Under the pieces are notes generated by a model, which saw only the letters and a list, made by a program, of their open reading frames with translations, ran no database searches and was not told where the DNA came from. This document shows positions 1,505 to 62,716 of a stretch of 64,000 nt of DNA, piece by piece; the first letter of the stretch is position 1, and every line of letters starts with the position of its first letter. The position numbers were made by a program, and so were the translations under genes. Source of the stretch: Octopus vulgaris (Eukaryota); contig OX597816.1 in assembly GCA_951406725.2 (NCBI GenBank), forward strand, positions 84,940,001 to 85,004,000, in the 5' to 3' direction.

Positions 1505-2483
1505 TGTACAGCGAATATGGTGAGTGGGGCTTAGTTTCCAATCAAAACTGCTCCGGCCTTTGGAATGTCATCCTCGCTCTATGTCACTAAGCATTATTCT
1601 GATGGAATATCACCTTTCGTCTTGAAACGAAAGACGTTAGTTTTTCTTCTGCGCATGTTGCTGAAGTTTACTCGCAGTGGATCTTTGTTATCGTTTGGTT
1701 TGGGTTTAAAAGTTTAAAGTGGATTAAAGCTTTCATATCTCACTAAACAGATAACAACAACCTACGTGGGTGAATACCTTCTTTAGCCTGGGTTACCGGT
1801 GTTTGTCATTTCTCTATCCACTGTCTTCGGCTTTTGACATTTTTATAGAGAATACCTTTCTCGTCACCACTCACTAATCGTGAGACCTGACTGCAAAGAT
1901 GAGCACATATTCACTCTCTGTACGCGATTAGACTCGGAAACTTTGTGACCAACCCAGTGATCCAATTTTCTGCTTTTACAGATGGCACACATGTGTCAAT
2001 GAATAGTTAAATGACCAAACCCAAGCCTCTCTGCTAGTTCCTCAACAGTTACGATGGACTTTTGTTCCACTAGTGTTGTCAGCACGTCCTCGTCGAGCTC
2101 TGCAATCTTCCAGGACGAGAATCGTCTTCTAGGCTGTAGTTTCTGGATCGGAATTTCAGGAGCCACCGTCGATATTGACTTACGCTTATTGTCCGATCCT
2201 CCATATACTGCATTAATATTCCTCGCACTTTCCGTTGCTTTGTTGCCTTTATTGAACTCGTAATGCAAAATATGCCGAATATGCTCCTTTGTCACTTCCA
2301 TTATAGCTTTGAAAGAATAACTGTTAAAATCAAACTGCACTCTTCAAAACTTGCACTAAGAATAAAACAAGGTAAATTTACTACCTGCTTTTACAGCAAG
2401 TCGAAGCAGGTTGTTTATCTCGTCCTCCACCGACTTTTAGTACATGTAACTAAAGAAACCGCATTATTTATGGGATGACACAA
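1505..2483 (-). mobile_element. Mariner transposon fossil (transposase pseudogene, one TIR)
   Basis: ORF 1996..2340 MEVTKEHIRHILHYEFNKGNKATESARNINAVYG is a mariner N-terminal HTH; degraded catalytic region runs down to a PHSPYS motif near 1510-1530; TIR-like end CCGCATTATTTATGGGATGACACAA followed by TA at 2484-2485. Confidence 0.85.
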
Positions 2484-3074
2484 TACATACACACACAGAG
2501 GAAAGTAAGCTATAAATAGTCGACTGACACTTATGCATAAGTATACATATTTATGTATAGATATGTAAAGTGTTGAGAAGAACAAAGGATTAGGCTTCTG
2601 CACAATCAGCATGAATGATGATTCGTAATCGGGACATTTAAAGAATATGGCACTATTGCAGGAGGAGATATAATCAAATAATTGATGGTATTTTGAGGAG
2701 AGCAGTGAACAATTCAGATGTGTTTTCCGTTCTAAGGGAATGTGATATTGAGTCAGAGAAACCGGAATTGTTAAAGTCCTGATGAGATATGTGAGAGGAA
2801 GTGAGAGTCTGCACGTACAGACTCTCACTTTAGCATTGTATGACAAACATAAATAAAGAATGCACCCTGGACAACTGAAATGGTTTGTAGAAGCGGATTG
2901 ACAAATTTACTCCTCAAAGAGAAATAGAATGTGTGCTTTTCGCATGAGATGATGTGTGCGATCTCGTTTGTAGAGAAATGATTGGATGTTTGCAGAGAAG
3001 GGGAGGAAATTGCTTAAGCGTTTGGATAAATGTCTTCTCAGAGTGAACTTGATACATATAAATAATAGGGTGGG

Positions 3075-3270
3075 TTCAGTAAGCGAGTTGCCAGAACCGT
3101 TAGCACCCCACGCGAAATGTTTAACGGAATTTCGTTCGTGCGTGCGATCTGAATTCAAATACTGCTAAGGTCTAATTTGCTTTTTCTCCTTTCGTGGTTG
3201 ATTAAATTAGGACTAGTCTAGCATTGAGTTACATGTAATCAATTTACCCGCTACTCAAAATGTCTGGCCC
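3075..3270 (+). mobile_element. Degraded SINE, family B
   Basis: GCGAGTTGCCAGAACCGTTAGCAC...TCCTTTCGTGGTTGATTAAATTAG aligns by eye to copies at 15278-15511 and 57677-58036. Confidence 0.65.
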
Positions 3271-8059: not shown

Positions 8060-10360
8060 ATTACCCATTTGACAACATAAACTTCCACAAAGCGGACTGG
8101 GGAACAATCAGAAAGGATCTGTCTTCCATCGACTGGTCTTTTACTCTCAATTCCTCTCATATTGAGACCGCGTGGCAGCACTTTGAAAACATTGTCACCT
8201 ATACATGCTCTAAACACGCTCCCAAGAAATCTACTAACACAAACAGAAACCGGCTCCCTAAAAAGAAAAAAAACACTCATCAGGCGCATCAAAAGACTCA
8301 ACAAAAAAATCAACCAATTAAAATATTCCCACACACAACATCCACACTCAACAACAATGAAAAGACTACAGCTGGAAAAACTTCATCTGCAGACCAACAT
8401 GAAAACCTCCATTGAAAATCAAAGAGCTGTGGAGGAACAATGGGTAATCAAAAACATCAAACAGAACCCAAAAGTGTTCTATTCTTATGCAAATAAGCAT
8501 AGAACCACTGTCTCACCCATTGGGCCATTGATTGATGATAACGGCATTCCCCAACACGATGATAAAGAAATGGCAGAAATACTGCAGAAACAATACTGCT
8601 CTGTCTTTAGTGTTCCCACTGATATTGACGTAAGGGAAACGAACGAAGTTGACTCCCAACACAAAATATCAGACATAACCTTCACTGCCACCGACATCGT
8701 AGCAGCAATAAATGAGGTCAAATATTACTCTGCTGTAGGCCCTGATAGATTTCCCGCTAGTCTCCTGAAGGAATGTAGATACCAACTTGCAGTCCCTCTG
8801 ACCTACCTCTGGAGAAATTCGTTAGACGCAGGTTATATACCGAAACAGTTTCTATCCCAGTCGGTCATCCCGGTTTTCAAACAGGGAAACAGATCCCTCG
8901 CAGTCAACTATCGCCCAATCTCACTCACCTCCCACATCATTAAAGTGTTTGAAAGAGTGTTAAGATCAAGGATAGCTGACTTCCTGGAGACCCACAAACT
9001 CCTAAATGCAAATCAGCATGGCTTTCGCTGTGGCAGGGACTGTCTAACACAGCTCTTACACCATATTGAAGATGTACTCAAAGCCTTGGGAACAGGTTCA
9101 AACTCTGACGTCATATATCTTGACTTCAGTAAAGCGTTCGACAGGGTAAACCATAACATCCTACTCTCAAAATTGGCAAACGTTGGAATCCGTGGAAAAG
9201 TTCTACACTGGATTAAGTATTTTCTGGCGAATAGAACACAACATGTTGTAGTTGATGGAGTCCACTCAAACCCAGCAAAAGTCACCAGCGGTGTTGCCCA
9301 GGAAACTGTTTTGGGTCCGCTACTCTTCATAATTTACGTAAACGACCTTTCCAGTGTCGTACATTACTGCAAAGTGAAAATATTTGCTGATGACACTAAG
9401 CTCCCGCAAATCGTCAATGAAGAAACAGACCGAACTCAACTCCAGTGTGATCTATATGCTGTGAGTCAATGGGCAGACAGAAACAAAATGCAACTGAATG
9501 AGGGAAAATTTGAGCTGATGCATTTTGGAAGAAATTCCTCACTAAAACAACCATACTCTCTTCCTTCAGGGGAACAGCTCACAGCCTCTAACAATATCAG
9601 AGACCTGGGTGTAATTGTTGATGACGATCTCAGTTGGAGTGCACACATCAACAAGAAGGTCGATATAGCTCGTAGGATGAGTTCCTGGATCTTAAGAACT
9701 TTCCGGTCCAGAGAACAAGGTGTCATCATACCACTTTTTTCCTCCTTTGTACGGCCACACCTTGAATACTGCTGCCCACTGTGGTCTCCTCACACAAGAC
9801 AAAACATCTCCAGAATTGAGTCACCCCAGAGGGCACTCACTAAACAAATTGAAAGCATGGCTGCTCTCGATTATTGGGATCGCCTTAAAGCCTTGAAACT
9901 TTACTCCCTCCAGCGTCGCCGTGAGCGGTACATCATTTGTACGATGTGGAAAATATACCGCCAACTTTGCCCAAACGACCTGAACATTAGCTTCAAGGTT
10001 CATCCAAGACTTGGACCACGGGCTATACGTCCCCTGCCCAATTCAAGATCACAACATACATGTACACTGCAACATAATTTCTTTTCTTCAACAGGCCCTG
10101 CCCTATTTAACATTGTCCCGAGGGAGATCAAAGAGGAAAAGGATCCCATCAACTTTAAACAGAGTCTGGATAGATTCCTTCAAAGAATACCAGATAAGCC
10201 ACCCATAATTGGATATAACTCACCCAACAAGAACTCACTAATTGAACAAAACTTGACTTAAACAAAAATTGACTTAAACAGGATTCGAATAATCCTATCA
10301 GGTGGTGCTATTAATTTAGACATGGCCTGGAGCAATCTTTGGTCGAAACATATCTAAGTT
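8060..10360 (+). mobile_element. 5'-truncated CR1/L2-group LINE retrotransposon
   Basis: EN-RT linker (NFHKADW...IDW) plus RT; short 3' UTR ending at (TA)n; no endonuclease domain. Confidence 0.92.
8162..10261 (+). pseudogene. LINE ORF2 reverse transcriptase (truncated; 1-bp frameshift in A-run near 8265)
   Basis: Motifs NYRPISLTS, QHGFR, YLDFSKAFD, GVAQETVLGPLLF, FADDTK, RDLGV, VRPHLEYCCPLWSP. Confidence 0.92.
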
Positions 10361-12610: not shown

Positions 12611-12727
12611 TGTTACTTTTTATCATTATTATTATTATTGTTATTATTATTGTTCTTCTTATTATTATTATTATTACTAGTCTTCTTCTGCTTCCTGCTA
12701 ACTTAACCGATACCGCAAATGGAGTTG

Positions 12728-12781
<54 letters not shown>

Positions 12782-33076: not shown

Positions 33077-33414
33077 TACACACACACGTGCATGGTAAAT
33101 GAAAGACGAAAGATGGAATATATGGGAATATATTATTAATGATGTACATATGTATATATATAAATATATATGCAAACACATACACACATATATATGTATA
33201 TATATATGTATATATATAACAATATATATATATATAATATAGCGTTAATGAAATCGTTAATACAGAATTATCCATAATTCTGATTGCCTCCTTTTTCTCA
33301 ATAATCGTACAACCCCTCATACACTCTATACACCCCTCACACACACACACACACACACACATATAAATATATAACACATATAATATATATATATATATAT
33401 ATGAATAAATAAAT

Positions 33415-34140
33415 ATATGGAGTTGAACGAAGATGTTAAGAAAATTCCTTTACTCTCGACATATGTTTCGAAGACAACATGGTTTTATTCCAAAGGAATA
33501 AACGGTGCAAGATGCAATCTTCTCATCAGGAAAGAAAGGAAGCCTCTCTCGACAACAAGACAAAACAATAATTGCGATGACTGTCTACATGGTAAACGAA
33601 GCGATAATAAGAGTTTTAAAAAACCGTTAGTAGAGTTGACGTCGAAGTTAGATAGTAGGAAGAGAAGGGTTAAAGGAATAATAAGTAGGGAACAAGTAGA
33701 GAGGGAAGGGTACGTTGATTAAAAGAATGTTCAAAGGCTTAGGAAAGAGTTTCTCTATTGAAGTAGAGTGCACGTTAAGCTAATTGTTCAAACTATAATG
33801 ACTATCGAAATCATTTATATGAGTAAAAAGTATGTTTCTGCCAGTGTTTACATTTGTACGATTTTTCTATAAGTGTGTTTACAAGGGGATCCTTAGAGAA
33901 GAGAATATGGAAGAGTTCAGAGTTGCAAATGTTACAAAATCTCCTGCCCTTATCAAAAGGAAAGGATACAGACAGTATTCATATATAACACACAAATTTC
34001 TGCACATGAACCCGGAGTTTTTACCCTTGGACAGGTCGCTTCAACCGTGTTTCTGACGTGAACTTGCTACCCTGGTATCGGTTCATCGAATTTTCCATGT
34101 TGACGGTAAACATGTAGGATAATTCATTCACCTATCGAAA
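33415..34140 (-). mobile_element. 5'-truncated Penelope-like element: GIY-YIG C-terminus plus hammerhead-bearing terminus, in (TA)n
   Basis: Minus strand FCNICNSELFHILFSKDPLVNTLIEKSYKCKHWQK (~33835-33950) matches the C.LC..E...I...LN...E...C.H motif of Neptune-type PLEs; TA repeats on both sides. Confidence 0.78.
33453..33534 (-). ncRNA. Type I hammerhead ribozyme
   Basis: CTTTC CTGATGA GAAGA...TCTTC GAAA CATATG TC GAGAG: 5-bp stem I (one GU), 5-bp stem II, palindromic ACATATGT stem III, GUC site. Confidence 0.85.
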
Positions 34141-34179
34141 TATATATATATATATATATATATATCTATATATCTATCT

Positions 34180-34247
34180 ATGTATGTATGTATGTATGTA
34201 TGTATGTATGTATGTATGTATGTATGTATGTATGTATGTATGTATGT
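34180..34247. repeat. (TATG)n microsatellite
   Basis: Pure run. Confidence 0.95.
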
Positions 34248-34364
34248 ATCTATCTCTCTCTATATATATGAATTTTCTTTCTTTCCTTCTTTCAAATAAT
34301 AAGGATTCTAAATTCATTGAGTTTGAAAACGAAAACTATTATCACTCAGTAATCGAAGAAGTAA

Positions 34365-34930
34365 AATGTACATTTAAGAAGTTTTGAGACATTTTCAGGA
34401 GAGATATTTTTGAAGTTTAGAGGAGTACAAGGCACTAATCTCCTTGGATGTAGGATCTTATGGCTTCAGTGAACCTGTTGTAGCGCTGGCCCCACTTCAT
34501 GAAGGCTGCGCTGGAAGCCTTTGAAAGTGAAGATGATCAGAGCACAAGTCACAGCCTCTTTCGCCTTCTTCGGGTTGGGGAACAACCAAGTCACAGTGAT
34601 CAAGATTTGGGCTGTAGGGAGGGCGAAGAACAATTTCGTTACTCATCTCTGTGAAATATTGGGTTACTAGAATGGTGTTTTGTACCGAAATCTCTTTCCA
34701 TTAAACTGGAGTATGTCATAAATTTCTGTAGCGTTTTTGCCCAGTTTAACACTTTATTGCATAGAGAACTTTCAAGTTGTATTCACATCCCGACAGCATT
34801 CTGAAAACAAGTCAGTTATGAGAAGCAGTGCTTAGTAGGGTGTGCTCAAAGTGCTGTTGCAGTGTCTCCTTCAAAGGGGACTAATAAAATTTGGCAGGCT
34901 AGCTTATTAGATATATAGTAAGATGATATT
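34365..34930 (-). mobile_element. Internally deleted, degraded mariner
   Basis: Minus strand N-terminal YAIK..VKLGKNATE and C-terminal KEAVT...RYN...SY.QGD* traces; TIR-like AAGTTTTGAGACATTTTC near 34378. Confidence 0.6.
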
Positions 34931-45294: not shown

Positions 45295-47715
45295 TCACAT
45301 CGACAATGCTCTTCTCAATACGTGTGATGTACCAGTTAAGACAATCTTTTGCACTTCTTGCACGGATGGTAAGCCAGGGATCATTCTCATATAATTTTCG
45401 GTTCCCTTCTTGATCATGCCTAGTGCTCCTACGATCACTGATATTGTAACCGCCTTGAGATGCCGCATTTTCTCAATTTCAATGAGCAGGTCTTTATATT
45501 TTCTGAGCTTGTCAAATTCTTTCGTCGAGATATTATGATCACAGGGGATGCTCATGTCGATCAATAAGCAAACTTTATTGTTTTGGTCTTTCACAACAAT
45601 ATCCGGTTTATTGGCTTTGATGGTTCGGTCTGTATGTACTGGAAAGTCCCACAGAATCGTTAGATTTTCTTCTTCAGTTACAGCTTCAGGGTGGTGATTA
45701 TACCACTTGTCGGCAGTTTTGATATTGTAATGCCGACTTATTAGCCAGTGTAGATATTGGCCAACTCTGTCATGTCTTAATTTATACTCCACTGGTGCTA
45801 AGACTTTACATCCAGAGATTAGGTGGTCCACTGTTTCAATCATGTCGTTGCAGAATCGGCATTTTGGGTCTGCTCCATTTTTCATCACATTGACCTGAGA
45901 GTTATGGGTTAATAGGCTTTGACCTTGAGCAGCCAGGATGAAACCTTCGCTCTCTGCTTTTAGCCCTGAGCTCCGTAGCCACTGATAGGTTTGCTTCTGG
46001 TCAACATCAGCTTGTTTGCTACGGGCCACATATTTGCCGTGCAGAGGTTTCTCCTCCCACCTATCAGCCAATTGCTCGTGCGCTTTTTTCGTTGCCATTA
46101 TTTTCACTTTCTTTGCAACAATAGTTGCCGTACTTCCCTCGGGTTGTTCAGTTTGGGTATCTTGCACGAGGTCAATAGCAAATTTTTTGCTTTCCTTTAT
46201 GATAGAATGAAGCTTCTTTCGTCTCTCTTGATTTTCCACGAGCTTTAGCATCCAGTCATTCGTTATTTCAAGATATTTGGCCAGTCCAATTGTGGTTGTT
46301 TTGTAAGGTAGTTCAAATTGGATCAGGCCTCGACCTCCTTGGGCTTTGGGGAGGTAAAGGCGATCTACGTCTGCCTTTGGGTGGTGCGTCCTATTACAAC
46401 TCAGCAGCTTGCGTATTTTCCTATCTATTTTCTTTACTTCACCCATATGCCAGTTCAACACTTTGTAGCTATAAGTAACAACTGGAACTGCTAAGAAATT
46501 TATAGCTAACACCTTGTTACGTGCATTTAGTTCAGATTTCAAAACTGCTCGAATTCTCCTATAACATTCCTTCCTGACCTTCTCTTTAATGCTTGCATGC
46601 TGAATACCAGAGCCTTCATTTATCCCTAAATATTTGTAGGTTTGTTCTTGCTCAAGCTCTCTTATGACTGTGCCAACATCTAACACGACTGAATTTGTGG
46701 TCTTCACTTTCCCTTTCTGGAAAGTGGCCTTGGCACACTTCTCAAGCCCAAACTCCATTCCGATGTCATCACTGAATGCTTTCACAGTGCGCAATAGGCC
46801 TTCAAGTTCATTATCGTCTTTACCATAGAGTTTTAAGTCATCCATATAAAATAGATGGCTTATTTTTTTATTGACAATTTTATACCCATACCCTGTTCTG
46901 TTTAATTCACTTGTAAGGGGTATTAGGGCTATGCAGAATATTAAAGGTGAAAGTGAGTCACCTTGAAAAATGCCACAGTTGATGTTTATATTCTCTGAGA
47001 CAAGTACTCCATTAGAGTGGTATAATTGGAAATTCGTATTCCACAACGACATATTATGCTTCACGAAGCTTGAAATCACAGGGGAAATTTTGAAGATGTC
47101 CAGCGATTTCAAGATCCATGAATTCGGTATACTGTCGAAGGCCTTTTTATAGTCAATCCATGAGAAGCTGAGATTTCTGCGATTGTTGTGACAGTTCTCA
47201 AGGATCATACGATTAATTAGCAGTTGATCTTTGCATCCGTATGAGCCTCGACGGCACCCTTTTTGTTCAATGGGGAAAATATCGTTCTTCTCCACGAATG
47301 CATATGTTTTCTCCGCCAGGATAGATGTTAGGATTTTATACGTGGCGGATAAATAGGTTATAGGCCGATAGTTTTTTGGAAGTTTCGTTTCGTTATTCTT
47401 TGGGAGTAGATAAGTAATGCCACTTGCTAACAATTCAGGTGTTTTCTTTGGGTCTCTCATAATTCCATTGAGCAGCTGAACAAGCTTACCGTGTGCGCAT
47501 GAGCGCCAGAAATTCGGCATCCTATCTTTACCGGGTGATTTCCAATTAGGGGCCTTCGTGAGTGCCTTTCTTAGGTGTGCTATTGTGATGTCTTCCCATG
47601 CTTGTTGTTGTAAATTTTGGTAGGATCCTTCTGTTTGTATAATCCAGTCTGCATTTATGTTGTACGTCTTCTCGTCACTCCAAATCCTTTTCCAAAAGTT
47701 TTGAACTTCTTCCAT
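45295..47715 (-). CDS. Dong/R4 polyprotein: RT, zinc knuckle and restriction-like endonuclease (806 aa open)
   Basis: NYRPIT, EQKGC, WIDYKKAFDS, GIFQGDSLSPL, YMDD, YKYLG, CRFC..ETVDHLISGC, RHD, KPDIVV..IDMSIP..K. Confidence 0.9.
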   Translation of the reverse strand: MEEVQNFWKRIWSDEKTYNINADWIIQTEGSYQNLQQQAWEDITIAHLRKALTKAPNWKSPGKDRMPNFWRSCAHGKLVQLLNGIMRDPKKTPELLASGITYLLPKNNETKLPKNYRPITYLSATYKILTSILAEKTYAFVEKNDIFPIEQKGCRRGSYGCKDQLLINRMILENCHNNRRNLSFSWIDYKKAFDSIPNSWILKSLDIFKISPVISSFVKHNMSLWNTNFQLYHSNGVLVSENININCGIFQGDSLSPLIFCIALIPLTSELNRTGYGYKIVNKKISHLFYMDDLKLYGKDDNELEGLLRTVKAFSDDIGMEFGLEKCAKATFQKGKVKTTNSVVLDVGTVIRELEQEQTYKYLGINEGSGIQHASIKEKVRKECYRRIRAVLKSELNARNKVLAINFLAVPVVTYSYKVLNWHMGEVKKIDRKIRKLLSCNRTHHPKADVDRLYLPKAQGGRGLIQFELPYKTTTIGLAKYLEITNDWMLKLVENQERRKKLHSIIKESKKFAIDLVQDTQTEQPEGSTATIVAKKVKIMATKKAHEQLADRWEEKPLHGKYVARSKQADVDQKQTYQWLRSSGLKAESEGFILAAQGQSLLTHNSQVNVMKNGADPKCRFCNDMIETVDHLISGCKVLAPVEYKLRHDRVGQYLHWLISRHYNIKTADKWYNHHPEAVTEEENLTILWDFPVHTDRTIKANKPDIVVKDQNNKVCLLIDMSIPCDHNISTKEFDKLRKYKDLLIEIEKMRHLKAVTISVIVGALGMIKKGTENYMRMIPGLPSVQEVQKIVLTGTSHVLRRALSM

Positions 47716-47750
47716 GGGAGGGGGGTCTTTAACGGTTACTTTCTCCTTCC

Positions 47751-48360
47751 CTATTTCTCTGTAGAATTTTTTGGCATCGGATGTAAACAGCTTATTTTGC
47801 TTGTAAAACTTGTTTCTCTTCTCAAATCTTTGTATTCTTTGAGCTTTTGCTTGGATTTTTTTTGTTTCAGCGTTTCTTTTATTGATATCAATTCTTGTCT
47901 TGGTGAGGATCCAAATTTTCTCTTCATCTTTCTTCCTGTTCTGGATCTTACATCATTTCCACATACTAGCTCATTTAATATTGATATTTCCCCTCTCATA
48001 AATTCAATCTCTTTTTCAATTTTACTTTTCCAGGTTTGATTTCTTCCCAGGTTTGGTTTTCTTTGTTTTTTCGGGGGCATACAGCTGGTTTCAATTGCCC
48101 TAGCAGAAGCGTAAATAATTTCATTTAACTCAGTAAAATCAGGTTTTAATTCTTGTATTATTTCATTTGTTACATAGTTGCCAATTTTGATTTGTTTTTT
48201 ATTTTGGTTTGTATTTGAGAGTTTATGAAGTGGTTCTCTATCATTCATACTTGTATGTCTTACAACTTCAAGCGTATTCAGGATTTTTTGCCTCATTTCT
48301 GCCATAAACTCTCTGTGTTCTTCAGCAAATGCGAGATCATCAGTTACTGTTGTTTTGTCA
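47751..48360 (-). pseudogene. N-terminal continuation of the Dong/R4 ORF, joined by one 1-bp frameshift
   Basis: Removing one A from the A-run at ~47856-47863 gives QKIQAKAQRIQRFEKRNKFYKQNKLF...DPPPMEEV, in frame with the 806-aa ORF. Confidence 0.85.
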
Positions 48361-52779: not shown

Positions 52780-53330
52780 ATTACGTCGGTTTATGCGAAG
52801 TCAATTTTAAAAGACGTTGTATAAACCTTCAGTCTTCTTTCTAGCATGTCAGCAAAAATAAAGCCAAAAAAGTTTCCTAGCGATTTATGGGGTGGGAAGA
52901 CAAACTGCAGATCACGTATAATCAAGTGAGGAATAACGGAGAAATCAGTGCTATATGTAAAGAGGGCAAAGAGATGTAACTTTTGCGTAGCTGAAAGATC
53001 GTATATTCTCTTTAGATCCAAGAATTCCACCAAATTACTTGATTCAAAGTCCATAATTTCCAGCGAATGTCGAACAGGAGGACACCATTCTTTCCAGGTT
53101 GAGCAGTTGTCTCGCATACTTTGGGCTTCTGCCCGTTTAGTTATTCTATACCAGCAAAATTAGTTATTATTTCTACGGTCAAATTGTATGTAACCCTTAA
53201 TTTTCTTTCTTTTCTTCCCTTCTTTTACCGTTTCTATTCATCCATTGCCTTTTCATTTCAGTTTTTGCGCCAATCTTCTCTATTTGTTTGTCTCTTTGTT
53301 TCTCATGCTGAAGATTGCTTGGTAACACAA
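52780..53330 (+). mobile_element. Degraded PLE 3' end (GIY-YIG C-terminus with decayed CTGAAGA box)
   Basis: KRCNFCVAERSYILF...LLDSKSIISSECR in ORF 52948..53163; CTGAAGATTGC at ~53308. Confidence 0.65.
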
Positions 53331-62379: not shown

Positions 62380-62716
62380 GAATAGGTAAGGAAAGAAGTA
62401 GATAAAATCCGGGTTACATATATTTCATAGCGAGCCTATCCTCGAAAATGGTAAATATCCATGCGAGGTATTTGAATCTGATTGAATCTTCCATGTATTT
62501 TTCAGGAACCTCCTTTCGATAATTCTGATTGAATCTTGAATGTGTTAACATGTATCTCCTTGCGAGAATTAAAACTTTCATTTAATCAAGATATCCTTAG
62601 CCTGAAGAGTAGCCTGCGGTACAGACCTCGCTTGAATATTTACCATTTCCGAAAGTCCGCTCGCTATGAAACACATGTAGCCCGGGTCTTGCCTAGTCCT
62701 TATATTTAACTCTTGT
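62380..62716. mobile_element. PLE terminus with inverted partial duplication, ending at (CA)n
   Basis: ~62385-62470 (CCGGGTTACATATATTTCATAGCGAGC...GCGAGGT) is the reverse complement of ~62625-62705. Confidence 0.65.
62599..62682 (+). ncRNA. Type I hammerhead ribozyme motif
   Basis: GC CTGAAGA GTAGC...GCTAT GAAA CACATG TA GC; 5-bp stem II, near-palindromic stem III, GUA site after 62679; stem I only 2 bp. Confidence 0.62.

What the first reader, a model, noticed from the sequence alone, without database searches (positions are those of the whole stretch)
33415..34140. Hammerhead physically linked to a PLE endonuclease tail
A canonical core (CUGAUGA, G-C closed stem II, GUC) with palindromic ACAUAUGU stem III and an internal hairpin TTTATTCC/GGAATAAA lies ~300 nt downstream of a Cys/His-rich GIY-YIG C-terminus, all between TA repeats. 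This ties the window's ribozymes to Neptune-type PLEs and is the best candidate for activity, probably as a dimer.
Basis: partly seen in the sequence, partly recalled or inferred. Interest (0 to 1): 0.75.

Follow-up and report, generated by a model that had tools for sequence, protein, structure and literature searches.

The report
Two-armed octopus Penelope stub with ribozyme
This is a broken 740-base piece of a common jumping gene that carries an intact self-cutting-RNA motif of untested activity; all 76 two-ended copies examined stop at two fixed points, one at each end, which likely means that the element is copied into both sides of a cut TA repeat at once.

Summary
The hammerhead is real and intact (minus strand, core 33529-33523, cut site 33458/33457), and it follows the last 55 codons of a Penelope-like endonuclease. 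The element is not Neptune: the family carries Hydra motifs (DKT, CxxC-E-N-CxH, no CCHH, (TA)n targets). 33979-34140 is not coding; it is the element's non-coding tail, inverted. The copy is a 5'-truncated, non-autonomous member of a high-copy family in a probable octopus genome. The family-level points are more interesting. All 76 two-ended insertions pair one arm ending at site A with one ending at site B, about 155 nt further on; none is A+A or B+B. This best fits priming from both nicked strands. The lineage lacks the Hydra linker cysteines yet still targets (TA)n. Its hammerheads share a 53-55-nt covarying stem II and a self-pairing stem III (97 of 100 genome matches), which favours dimers. 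34 of 39 arms run through the cut site, so templates were mostly uncut or religated. Cleavage and expression are untested. Earlier notes of this scan reached similar readings on other DNA. Verdict: new variant of a known kind.

The parts
33361..33402 (.). (TA)n target repeat at the A end
   Evidence: the last ~7 nt are shared between element and target
33396..33978 (-). Arm A: 5'-truncated body (unit positions 2435-2978) ending at start site A
   Evidence: up to 95-96% identical to the closest copies
33811..33978 (-). Last 55 codons and stop of the Hydra-type endonuclease (CxxC, E, N, CxH); no start codon, no GIY/YIG strands
   Evidence: 53% identical to the end of an intact 895-aa sister ORF, E 5e-23
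33530..33541 (-). Hammerhead stem I, 5' strand
33523..33529 (-). Catalytic core CUGAUGA
33470..33522 (-). Extended stem II (53 nt): 11-12-bp proximal helix, asymmetric loop, distal hairpin 33502-33484
   Evidence: 6 of 12 proximal pairs change on both sides across families
33458..33469 (-). GAAA, self-complementary stem III ACAUAUGU and GUC triplet; predicted cut between 33458 and 33457
33445..33457 (-). Hammerhead stem I, 3' strand
33976..33978 (.). 3-nt microhomology (TAT) joining the two arms head to head
33976..34143 (+). Arm B: the non-coding tail (unit positions 2967-3132; part of the 5' UTR of the next unit), inverted relative to arm A and ending at start site B
   Evidence: 97-98% identical to the closest copies
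34141..34253 (.). (TA)n and (TATG)n repeat at the B end

Best explanation
The stretch is a 5'-truncated, non-autonomous insertion of a Hydra-derived Penelope-like retrotransposon in a TA repeat, made of two head-to-head arms that were likely written by two priming events, one from each nicked DNA strand. SHOWN: arm A holds the last 55 endonuclease codons, the 3' UTR and an intact type I hammerhead, and ends at site A; arm B is the ~155-nt tail between sites A and B, inverted; the arms meet at a 3-nt overlap; the family unit is 3,179 nt (RT-endonuclease ORF, ribozyme, A, tail, B, then the next ATG). INFERRED: the endonuclease nicks both strands of (TA)n; one 3'-OH primes cDNA at B and the other at A, probably helped by 1-7 nt of U/A pairing; both cDNAs stop early and anneal by microhomology. 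INFERRED: the ribozyme needs an intermolecular stem III, probably cleaves slowly or only with protein, and mostly leaves the template uncut or religated. This copy is probably inert debris.
For: Architecture of tandem copies and unit. 76 of 76 two-ended insertions are A+B, 46 of 46 in a genome-order sample (p 3e-14 against independent 50:50 choice). The same holds in 22 of 22 two-armed insertions of sister families, counted by eye. In 45 of 76, arm A reaches further 5' than arm B, as in this copy, so neither arm is a copy of the other. 31 of the 64 simple junctions overlap by at least 1 nt (tallied from the gap list). Two RT start sites that define the PLE tail, with both strands nicked and extended, were shown in vitro for a Poseidon element (PMC11167929). 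Hydra motifs. The modelled sister protein is closest to telomerase RT. Ribozyme core intact in 162 of 208 copies. Stem III centre self-pairing in 97 of the first 100 of 12,312 genome matches (266 in the control). 34 of 39 arms cross the cut site; 0 of 118 end at unit positions 2914-2921.
Against: No biochemistry and no expression data. The GIY-YIG call rests on alignment, not on a library hit: Pfam gave none, and the displayed fold matches are all polymerases. In 25 of 76 insertions arm A lies inside arm B, which fold-back could also give. One three-armed locus (L314) has an internal A/A pair, though its outer ends are B and A. 115 of 191 chains were single-armed or had an undefined end and were not counted. 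Only 4 of 76 B arms stop at A as this one does, so a single shared template is not shown. In vitro, Poseidon start sites were not homologous to the target and did not differ between strands. The Hydra linker motif is missing and RWK reads RWL. Covariation counts are inflated by relatedness: the count of pairs with two-sided change did not beat shuffles (262/500).
Confidence: 0.75

Rival explanations
1. One cDNA is primed at the target and then folds back or self-primes, or a tandem intermediate is resolved by endonuclease cuts at A and B; the second arm is a copy, not a second priming event.
For: Self-priming was proposed for head-to-head PLE repeats (PMC3846280, passages) and endonuclease resolution for the tail (PMC8557442). 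25 of 76 insertions have arm A inside arm B and 6 have equal inner ends, some at palindromes. A and B are both AT-rich and could be cut sites.
Against: In this copy and in 45 of 76, arm A holds sequence that arm B lacks, while arm B holds tail that arm A lacks. A 155-nt stagger is far longer than the 30-40-bp tails described. The tail was shown to lie between RT start sites in vitro.
Confidence: 0.15
2. A colinear copy (body, ribozyme, tail) was rearranged after insertion by a local inversion that moved the tail to the 5' end.
For: The two arms are adjacent in the unit (2435-2978 and 2967-3132), so the copy contains almost no duplication.
Against: Both outer ends are precise family end points flush with (TA)n, and the same head-to-head A+B form recurs in 76 independent insertions with different inner ends.
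Confidence: 0.04
3. One reading: a Neptune-type element whose endonuclease coding region runs through 33800-34140.
For: A Cys/His-rich C-terminus, a hammerhead ~300 nt downstream and (TA)n targets, which Neptune is also said to prefer.
Against: No CxxC between the GIY- and YIG-like strands and no linker CX2-5CxxC. DKT, CxxC-E-N-CxH and the RT match published Hydra proteins by eye. 33979-34140 is an inverted UTR.
Confidence: 0.02
4. The extended stem II stabilises the ribozyme enough to cleave as a monomer, and this copy cuts host transcripts.
For: The active monomer fold is only 2.2 kcal/mol above the MFE. The window copy has an intact core, and 2 of its 4 differences from its subfamily majority add Watson-Crick pairs.
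Against: A monomer has a 2-bp stem III. The stem III centre stays self-complementary across families. Most arms cross the cut site. No host exon was recognised among 34 ORFs scanned. Single metazoan PLE hammerheads did not cleave in PMC4209133.
Confidence: 0.1

Closest known systems
Hydra clade of C-terminal-endonuclease Penelope-like elements (Craig et al. 2021, PMC8557442), incl. Hydra-1_Obim from Octopus bimaculoides
   Same: Single RT-GIY-YIG ORF, DKT, divergent RT4, no CCHH, C-terminal CxxC and CxH, (TA)n targets, hammerhead in the pLTR, inverted 5'-truncated arm, one-sided tail.
   Different: No linker CxCX5C (replaced by a ~120-aa disordered N/S-rich tract and a cysteine-free motif); RWL for RWK; ORF ~895 aa; unit 3.2-3.6 kb; stem II region 53-55 nt against about 11-25 nt in the listed Hydra ribozymes (read by eye); tail ~155 nt against 30-40. 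Hydra-1_Obim has a different ribozyme, so it is another family.
Poseidon PAc of Anolis carolinensis (Frangieh et al. 2024, PMC11167929)
   Same: Two internal RT start sites define the tail; both strands are nicked and extended; unprocessed RNA is the main template; no reads end at the cut site.
   Different: PAc sites are 30-40 nt apart inside the ORF, are not homologous to the target and show no strand difference; here they are ~155 nt apart in the 5' UTR, are U/A-rich, and are strictly paired one per end.
Metazoan PLE type I hammerheads with palindromic helix III (Cervera and de la Pena 2014, PMC4209133)
   Same: Type I topology, conserved core, G10.1-C11.1, unstable palindromic helix III, predicted dimer.
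   Different: Helix II there is 4-8 bp; here it is an 11-12-bp covarying helix plus an internal loop and a second hairpin.
Adineta vaga Penelope elements with N-rich inserts (Arkhipova et al. 2013, PMC3846280)
   Same: An asparagine-rich in-frame insert between RT and endonuclease; inverted pLTR with optional tail.
   Different: Different clade; there the insert is reported as an addition, here it coincides with loss of the linker cysteines.

Membership tests
Hydra PLE clade | Single ORF with RT and C-terminal GIY-YIG endonuclease | tested here: met
   Family-level: intact 895-904-aa ORFs in sister families, YRDD, telomerase-like fold, endonuclease aligned with Hydra-type homologues. No Pfam GIY-YIG hit. 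The window holds only 55 aa.
Hydra PLE clade | DKG modified to DKT | tested here: met
   DKT in L031 of the window's family and in 5 of 5 sister ORFs that include the region; copy L033 reads DKA.
Hydra PLE clade | N-terminal RWK motif | tested here: inconclusive
   Same position, but RWL in all 5 ORFs with the N-terminus and in L072.
Hydra PLE clade | No CCHH motif in the endonuclease | tested here: met
   no Cys pair between the SIY and YIG strands.
Hydra PLE clade | C-terminal CxxC and CxH around conserved E and N | tested here: met
   Present in the window's own 55 aa.
Hydra PLE clade | Linker CxCX5C | tested here: not met
   No CxC anywhere in 6 of 6 long ORFs and 2 pieces of the lineage, against 86 of 87 database homologues with an endonuclease end. 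83 of 85 translated linkers lack CxC (one of the 2 exceptions is a canonical Hydra neighbour, the other was not inspected). Filed as Hydra-derived, not as a canonical member.
Hydra PLE clade | Insertion into (TA)n | tested here: met
   Outer ends listed and this copy.
Hydra PLE clade | Short element (generally <3 kb) | tested here: not met
   Unit 3,179 nt; sister family 3,624 nt.
Hydra PLE clade | RT groups with Hydra in a PLE phylogeny | tested here: inconclusive
   Quick tree of 54 rows, SH-aLRT only, midpoint root, no Neptune, Poseidon or Nematis references: the lineage is one long-branched clade (100) among Hydra-type homologues.
Neptune PLE | CCHH finger with two Cys between GIY and YIG | tested here: not met
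Neptune PLE | Linker CX2-5CxxC | tested here: not met
Type I hammerhead ribozyme | Core CUGANGA, GAAA, NUH triplet, G10.1-C11.1 | tested here: met
Type I hammerhead ribozyme | Three stems with open stem I, supported by covariation | tested here: met
   91% of cells paired, 43 two-sided changes against 19.5 in shuffles, at most 9 in slid controls; RNAalifold recovers stem II only; stems I and III show no two-sided change.
Type I hammerhead ribozyme | Match to an Rfam hammerhead model | tested here: not met
   probably due to the long stem II (inference).
Type I hammerhead ribozyme | Self-cleavage after C17 | not testable with these tools
   Only contigs were available.

The most novel reading that the evidence does not exclude
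A cephalopod Penelope lineage has dropped the zinc-binding linker thought to direct (TA)n targeting and aims by RNA-DNA pairing instead. Each insertion uses both nicked strands and two fixed start sites 155 nt apart, always one of each. Its long-stem-II hammerheads pair through stem III mainly to hold two uncut RNAs in one insertion complex, so the ribozyme is a structural coupler more than a cutter.
Probability: 0.2. Interest if true: 0.75.

Novelty: new variant of a known kind. Interest (0 to 1): 0.45.

Why it matters
How Penelope-like elements make their inverted, one-side-tailed insertions, and what their hammerheads do, are open questions (PMC8557442, PMC11167929). This lineage makes both testable. 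The start sites are 155 nt apart and easy to resolve, the pairing rule is strict, and a young sister family has many intact 895-aa ORFs. (TA)n targeting without the linker cysteines argues against the proposal that this linker sets the target. The copy in the window is itself ordinary debris.

Tried and rejected
Rfam at gathering score and at E<=10: no hammerhead. Pfam on the endonuclease pieces: only a weak KDM6 GATA-like hit below cut-off, rejected as a CxxC look-alike. An alternative hairpin UGCA-nnn-UGCA in stem II was rejected: it is broken in 32 of 208 copies by a family-fixed change and is absent from the consensus fold. One search had stem I off by one column; one search replaces it. 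An apparent pile-up of arm ends just 3' of the cut site in the tail-selected loci was not borne out in a genome-order sample: 1 of 39 at 2914-2921, and that one confounded by a (GA)n flank; 4 of 39 at 2922-2937. The raw histogram is unusable because divergent sister families give false ends. The 0-of-118 count is blind to ends 3' of position 2917. Expression: no RNA holder listed; contigs of four runs cannot show ends, strand or level; neither is used as evidence. A single-sequence fold was unusable (pLDDT 34.6). The careful tree did not finish. No intact ORF of the window's own subfamily was seen among the 123 best-scored of 8,328 candidates (longest open frames at >=81% identity: 785-833 aa); this is not proof of absence. 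Literature: eight searches found no paper on a long-stem-II Hydra ribozyme, on linker loss, or on a strict one-of-each end rule. The library lacks most subscription papers; Lunse et al. 2017 on dimeric PLE hammerheads was not read (recalled only); the supplements of PMC11167929, PMC4209133 and the bioRxiv preprint were not seen and may bear on novelty.

Full report
Observation. The minus strand reads, 5' to 3': stem I strand 33541-33530, CUGAUGA 33529-33523, a 53-nt stem II region opened and closed by G33522-C33470, GAAA, ACAUAUGU, the GUC triplet ending at 33458, and the stem I partner 33457-33445. Rfam does not find the motif, and its folding energy is not unusual (z -1.71), so the case rests on comparison. 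The genome is 2.8 Gb. The closest named homologues are from Octopus sinensis, O. bimaculoides and Argonauta, so the host is probably an octopus (inference).

Family. The stretch has 3,540 first-look candidates in the genome. A 33-nt motif just after the cut site has 865 exact matches and a 19-nt motif 3,918 (controls 0); the second count includes sister families. Tandem copies define a 3,179-nt unit: ATG, RT, endonuclease, 3' UTR, ribozyme (core at unit position 2845, cut at 2916/2917), end site A (~2978), tail, end site B (~3132), and ~50 nt more of 5' UTR before the next ATG. The window copy is unit 2435-2978 on the minus strand plus unit 2967-3132 on the plus strand, joined at a 3-nt overlap. 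So 33979-34140 is the non-coding tail turned round, and only 33978-33814 codes: the last 55 residues, without the GIY or YIG strands. This copy cannot make protein.

Clade. Craig et al. (PMC8557442; I read the abstract, outline, sections 3 and 11, search passages, and supplement parts 2 and 58 plus search hits) define Hydra by DKT, RWK, no CCHH, a CxCX5C linker, C-terminal CxxC and CxH, and (TA)n targets. The family has DKT, YRDD, no CCHH, and CxxC-E-N-CxH. Its RT and endonuclease resemble the published Hydra alignment by eye, and not the Neptune rows. A model of an intact sister protein (78-sequence alignment, pLDDT 80) is closest to telomerase RTs (best E 1.6e-9). No library named the GIY-YIG domain. 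Two listed features fail. RWK reads RWL. The linker cysteines are absent from all 6 long ORFs and 2 pieces tested, while 86 of 87 database homologues with an endonuclease end keep them (27 of 114 proteins lacked that end and were not counted). In their place is a ~120-aa disordered N/S-rich tract. Canonical Hydra families with the linker also occur in this genome. A quick tree without reference clades shows the lineage as one long-branched group among Hydra-type proteins. I therefore call it Hydra-derived, not a canonical member, and not Neptune. It still inserts into (TA)n, which does not fit the proposal in that paper that the linker drives this bias.

End rule. I mapped arms in the loci fetched up, leaving out the tandem array L069-L071 and the divergent subfamily L119-L148. 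Of 191 chains, 76 had both outer ends at a family end point; all 76 were one A and one B, arms head to head, and none was A+A or B+B. 46 of these came from a list in genome order (p 3e-14 under independent 50:50 choice). The other 115 chains were single-armed, cut by the locus edge or had an undefined end; at least three single arms show a short opposite arm by eye. Sister families follow the rule in 22 of 22 two-armed cases counted by eye; a three-armed locus, L314, has an internal A/A pair. In 45 of 76, arm A extends further 5' than arm B, so neither arm can be a fold-back copy of the other; in 25 arm A lies inside arm B and in 6 the inner ends are equal. Outer ends vary by a few bases and merge into the target at TA or AT steps.

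Mechanism. Each arm, read inward from its flank, is the antisense of the element starting at A or B, which is what a cDNA primed by that flank's 3'-OH would be. Frangieh et al. (PMC11167929; parts 1-2 of 4 read, covering the main text) showed for a Poseidon element that both strands are nicked and extended and that the tail lies between two RT start sites. I infer the same chemistry here with a strict division of labour, then annealing of the two cDNA ends by microhomology. Whether one or two RNAs are used is open: this copy's B arm stops exactly at A, as a shared template would predict, but only 4 of 76 do. Self-priming (PMC3846280, search passages only) and endonuclease resolution remain rivals for part of the copies. 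A conserved 10-bp helix in the 5' UTR encloses site B, with a hairpin just 5' of it; support is mostly conservation, and the covariation term is unfavourable overall.

Ribozyme. The core is intact in 162 of 208 copies, and this copy differs from its subfamily majority at 4 positions, none in the core. Five related families keep a 53-55-nt stem II region. On 25 distinct sequences, 6 of 12 proximal pairs change on both sides: 43 such cells against 19.5 in shuffles and at most 9 in slid controls, though the count of such pairs does not beat shuffles and relatedness inflates cell counts. RNAalifold finds the same helix unaided. The Hydra ribozymes listed by Craig et al. have much shorter stem II regions. 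Stem III can form only 2 bp in a monomer but 8 bp between two RNAs (-7.0 kcal/mol). Its central two bases are UA, UG or CG in these families. Among the first 100 of 12,312 genome matches to the stem III motif (266 in the control) I counted TA 45, TG 27, CG 20, GC 4, AT 1, TT 2, CA 1, so 97 can self-pair (this motif also catches unrelated families, and copies are not independent events). This supports the dimer described for metazoan PLE hammerheads (PMC4209133; parts 1-2 of 4 read, results and discussion), where activity was low. 34 of 39 arms run through the cut site, so copied templates were mostly uncut or religated, as in PAc. Activity of this copy in vivo is doubtful: it has one ribozyme, no partner in cis, and no host exon was recognised in the 34 of 99 candidate ORFs (plus hand-picked ones) scanned.

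Novelty. PLE hammerheads, Hydra elements in octopus, inverted arms and one-sided tails are published. I found no paper on the long stem II, the linker loss, the 155-nt tail or the strict pairing (searches; limits given under Tried and rejected; of the bioRxiv retrozyme preprint 10.64898/2026.07.22.740005 I read part 1 of 5). My reading was on record before I looked. Earlier notes of this scan then turned out to hold the two-armed model, the Hydra call and the long stem for other DNA; they are not independent support. Verdict: new variant of a known kind, interest 0.45.

Noticed in passing
L069-L071 (G000:C20:23.327-23.357 Mb): A tandem array of full units of this family carries ~260 A>G against ~65 T>C differences on the sense strand, versus ~42 and ~62 in four other long copies. 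This looks like ADAR-type hyperediting copied into DNA; sequence context was not tested.
   Followed up: partly
L354-L357, L363, L364, L367: A young sister family has many uninterrupted 895-904-aa ORFs, near-identical copies and 3,624-nt tandem units, with stem III ACACGUGU; it may still be mobile.
   Followed up: partly
window 52885-53088 (+) and 53308: Decayed Hydra-type endonuclease end (tblastn E 2e-4 with P0003) with a CUGAAGA 220 nt downstream and no clear second half of the core.
   Followed up: partly
window 62601-62680 (+): Hammerhead-like motif of another family, also with a long stem II; stem III ACACAUGU cannot fully self-pair and stem I is short.
   Followed up: partly
window 7187 (-) and 7574 (+): Head-to-head pair of hammerhead-like motifs of another family; the plus copy has palindromic stem III ACAGCUGU.
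   Followed up: partly
window 12694-12735 (+): 42-nt scrap of this family's 5' UTR and start codon, 93% identical.
   Followed up: no
window 45298-47952 (-), 8081-10258 (+), 1999-2343 (-): Two long LINE-type RT frames (885 and 726 aa) and a mariner HTH piece; 34500-34700 (-) has a mariner-like PPYSPNLD motif (recalled, no Pfam hit).
   Followed up: partly
L324-L343: A canonical Hydra family (RWK, DKT, linker CxC) with many intact 727-aa frames and a short-stem hammerhead-like core in its 5' repeat.
   Followed up: partly
unit position ~3079-3084 (L194, L195, L214, L227, L229, L236): Six of 45 B arms stop here, at the 5' side of a conserved tail hairpin; unexplained.
   Followed up: no
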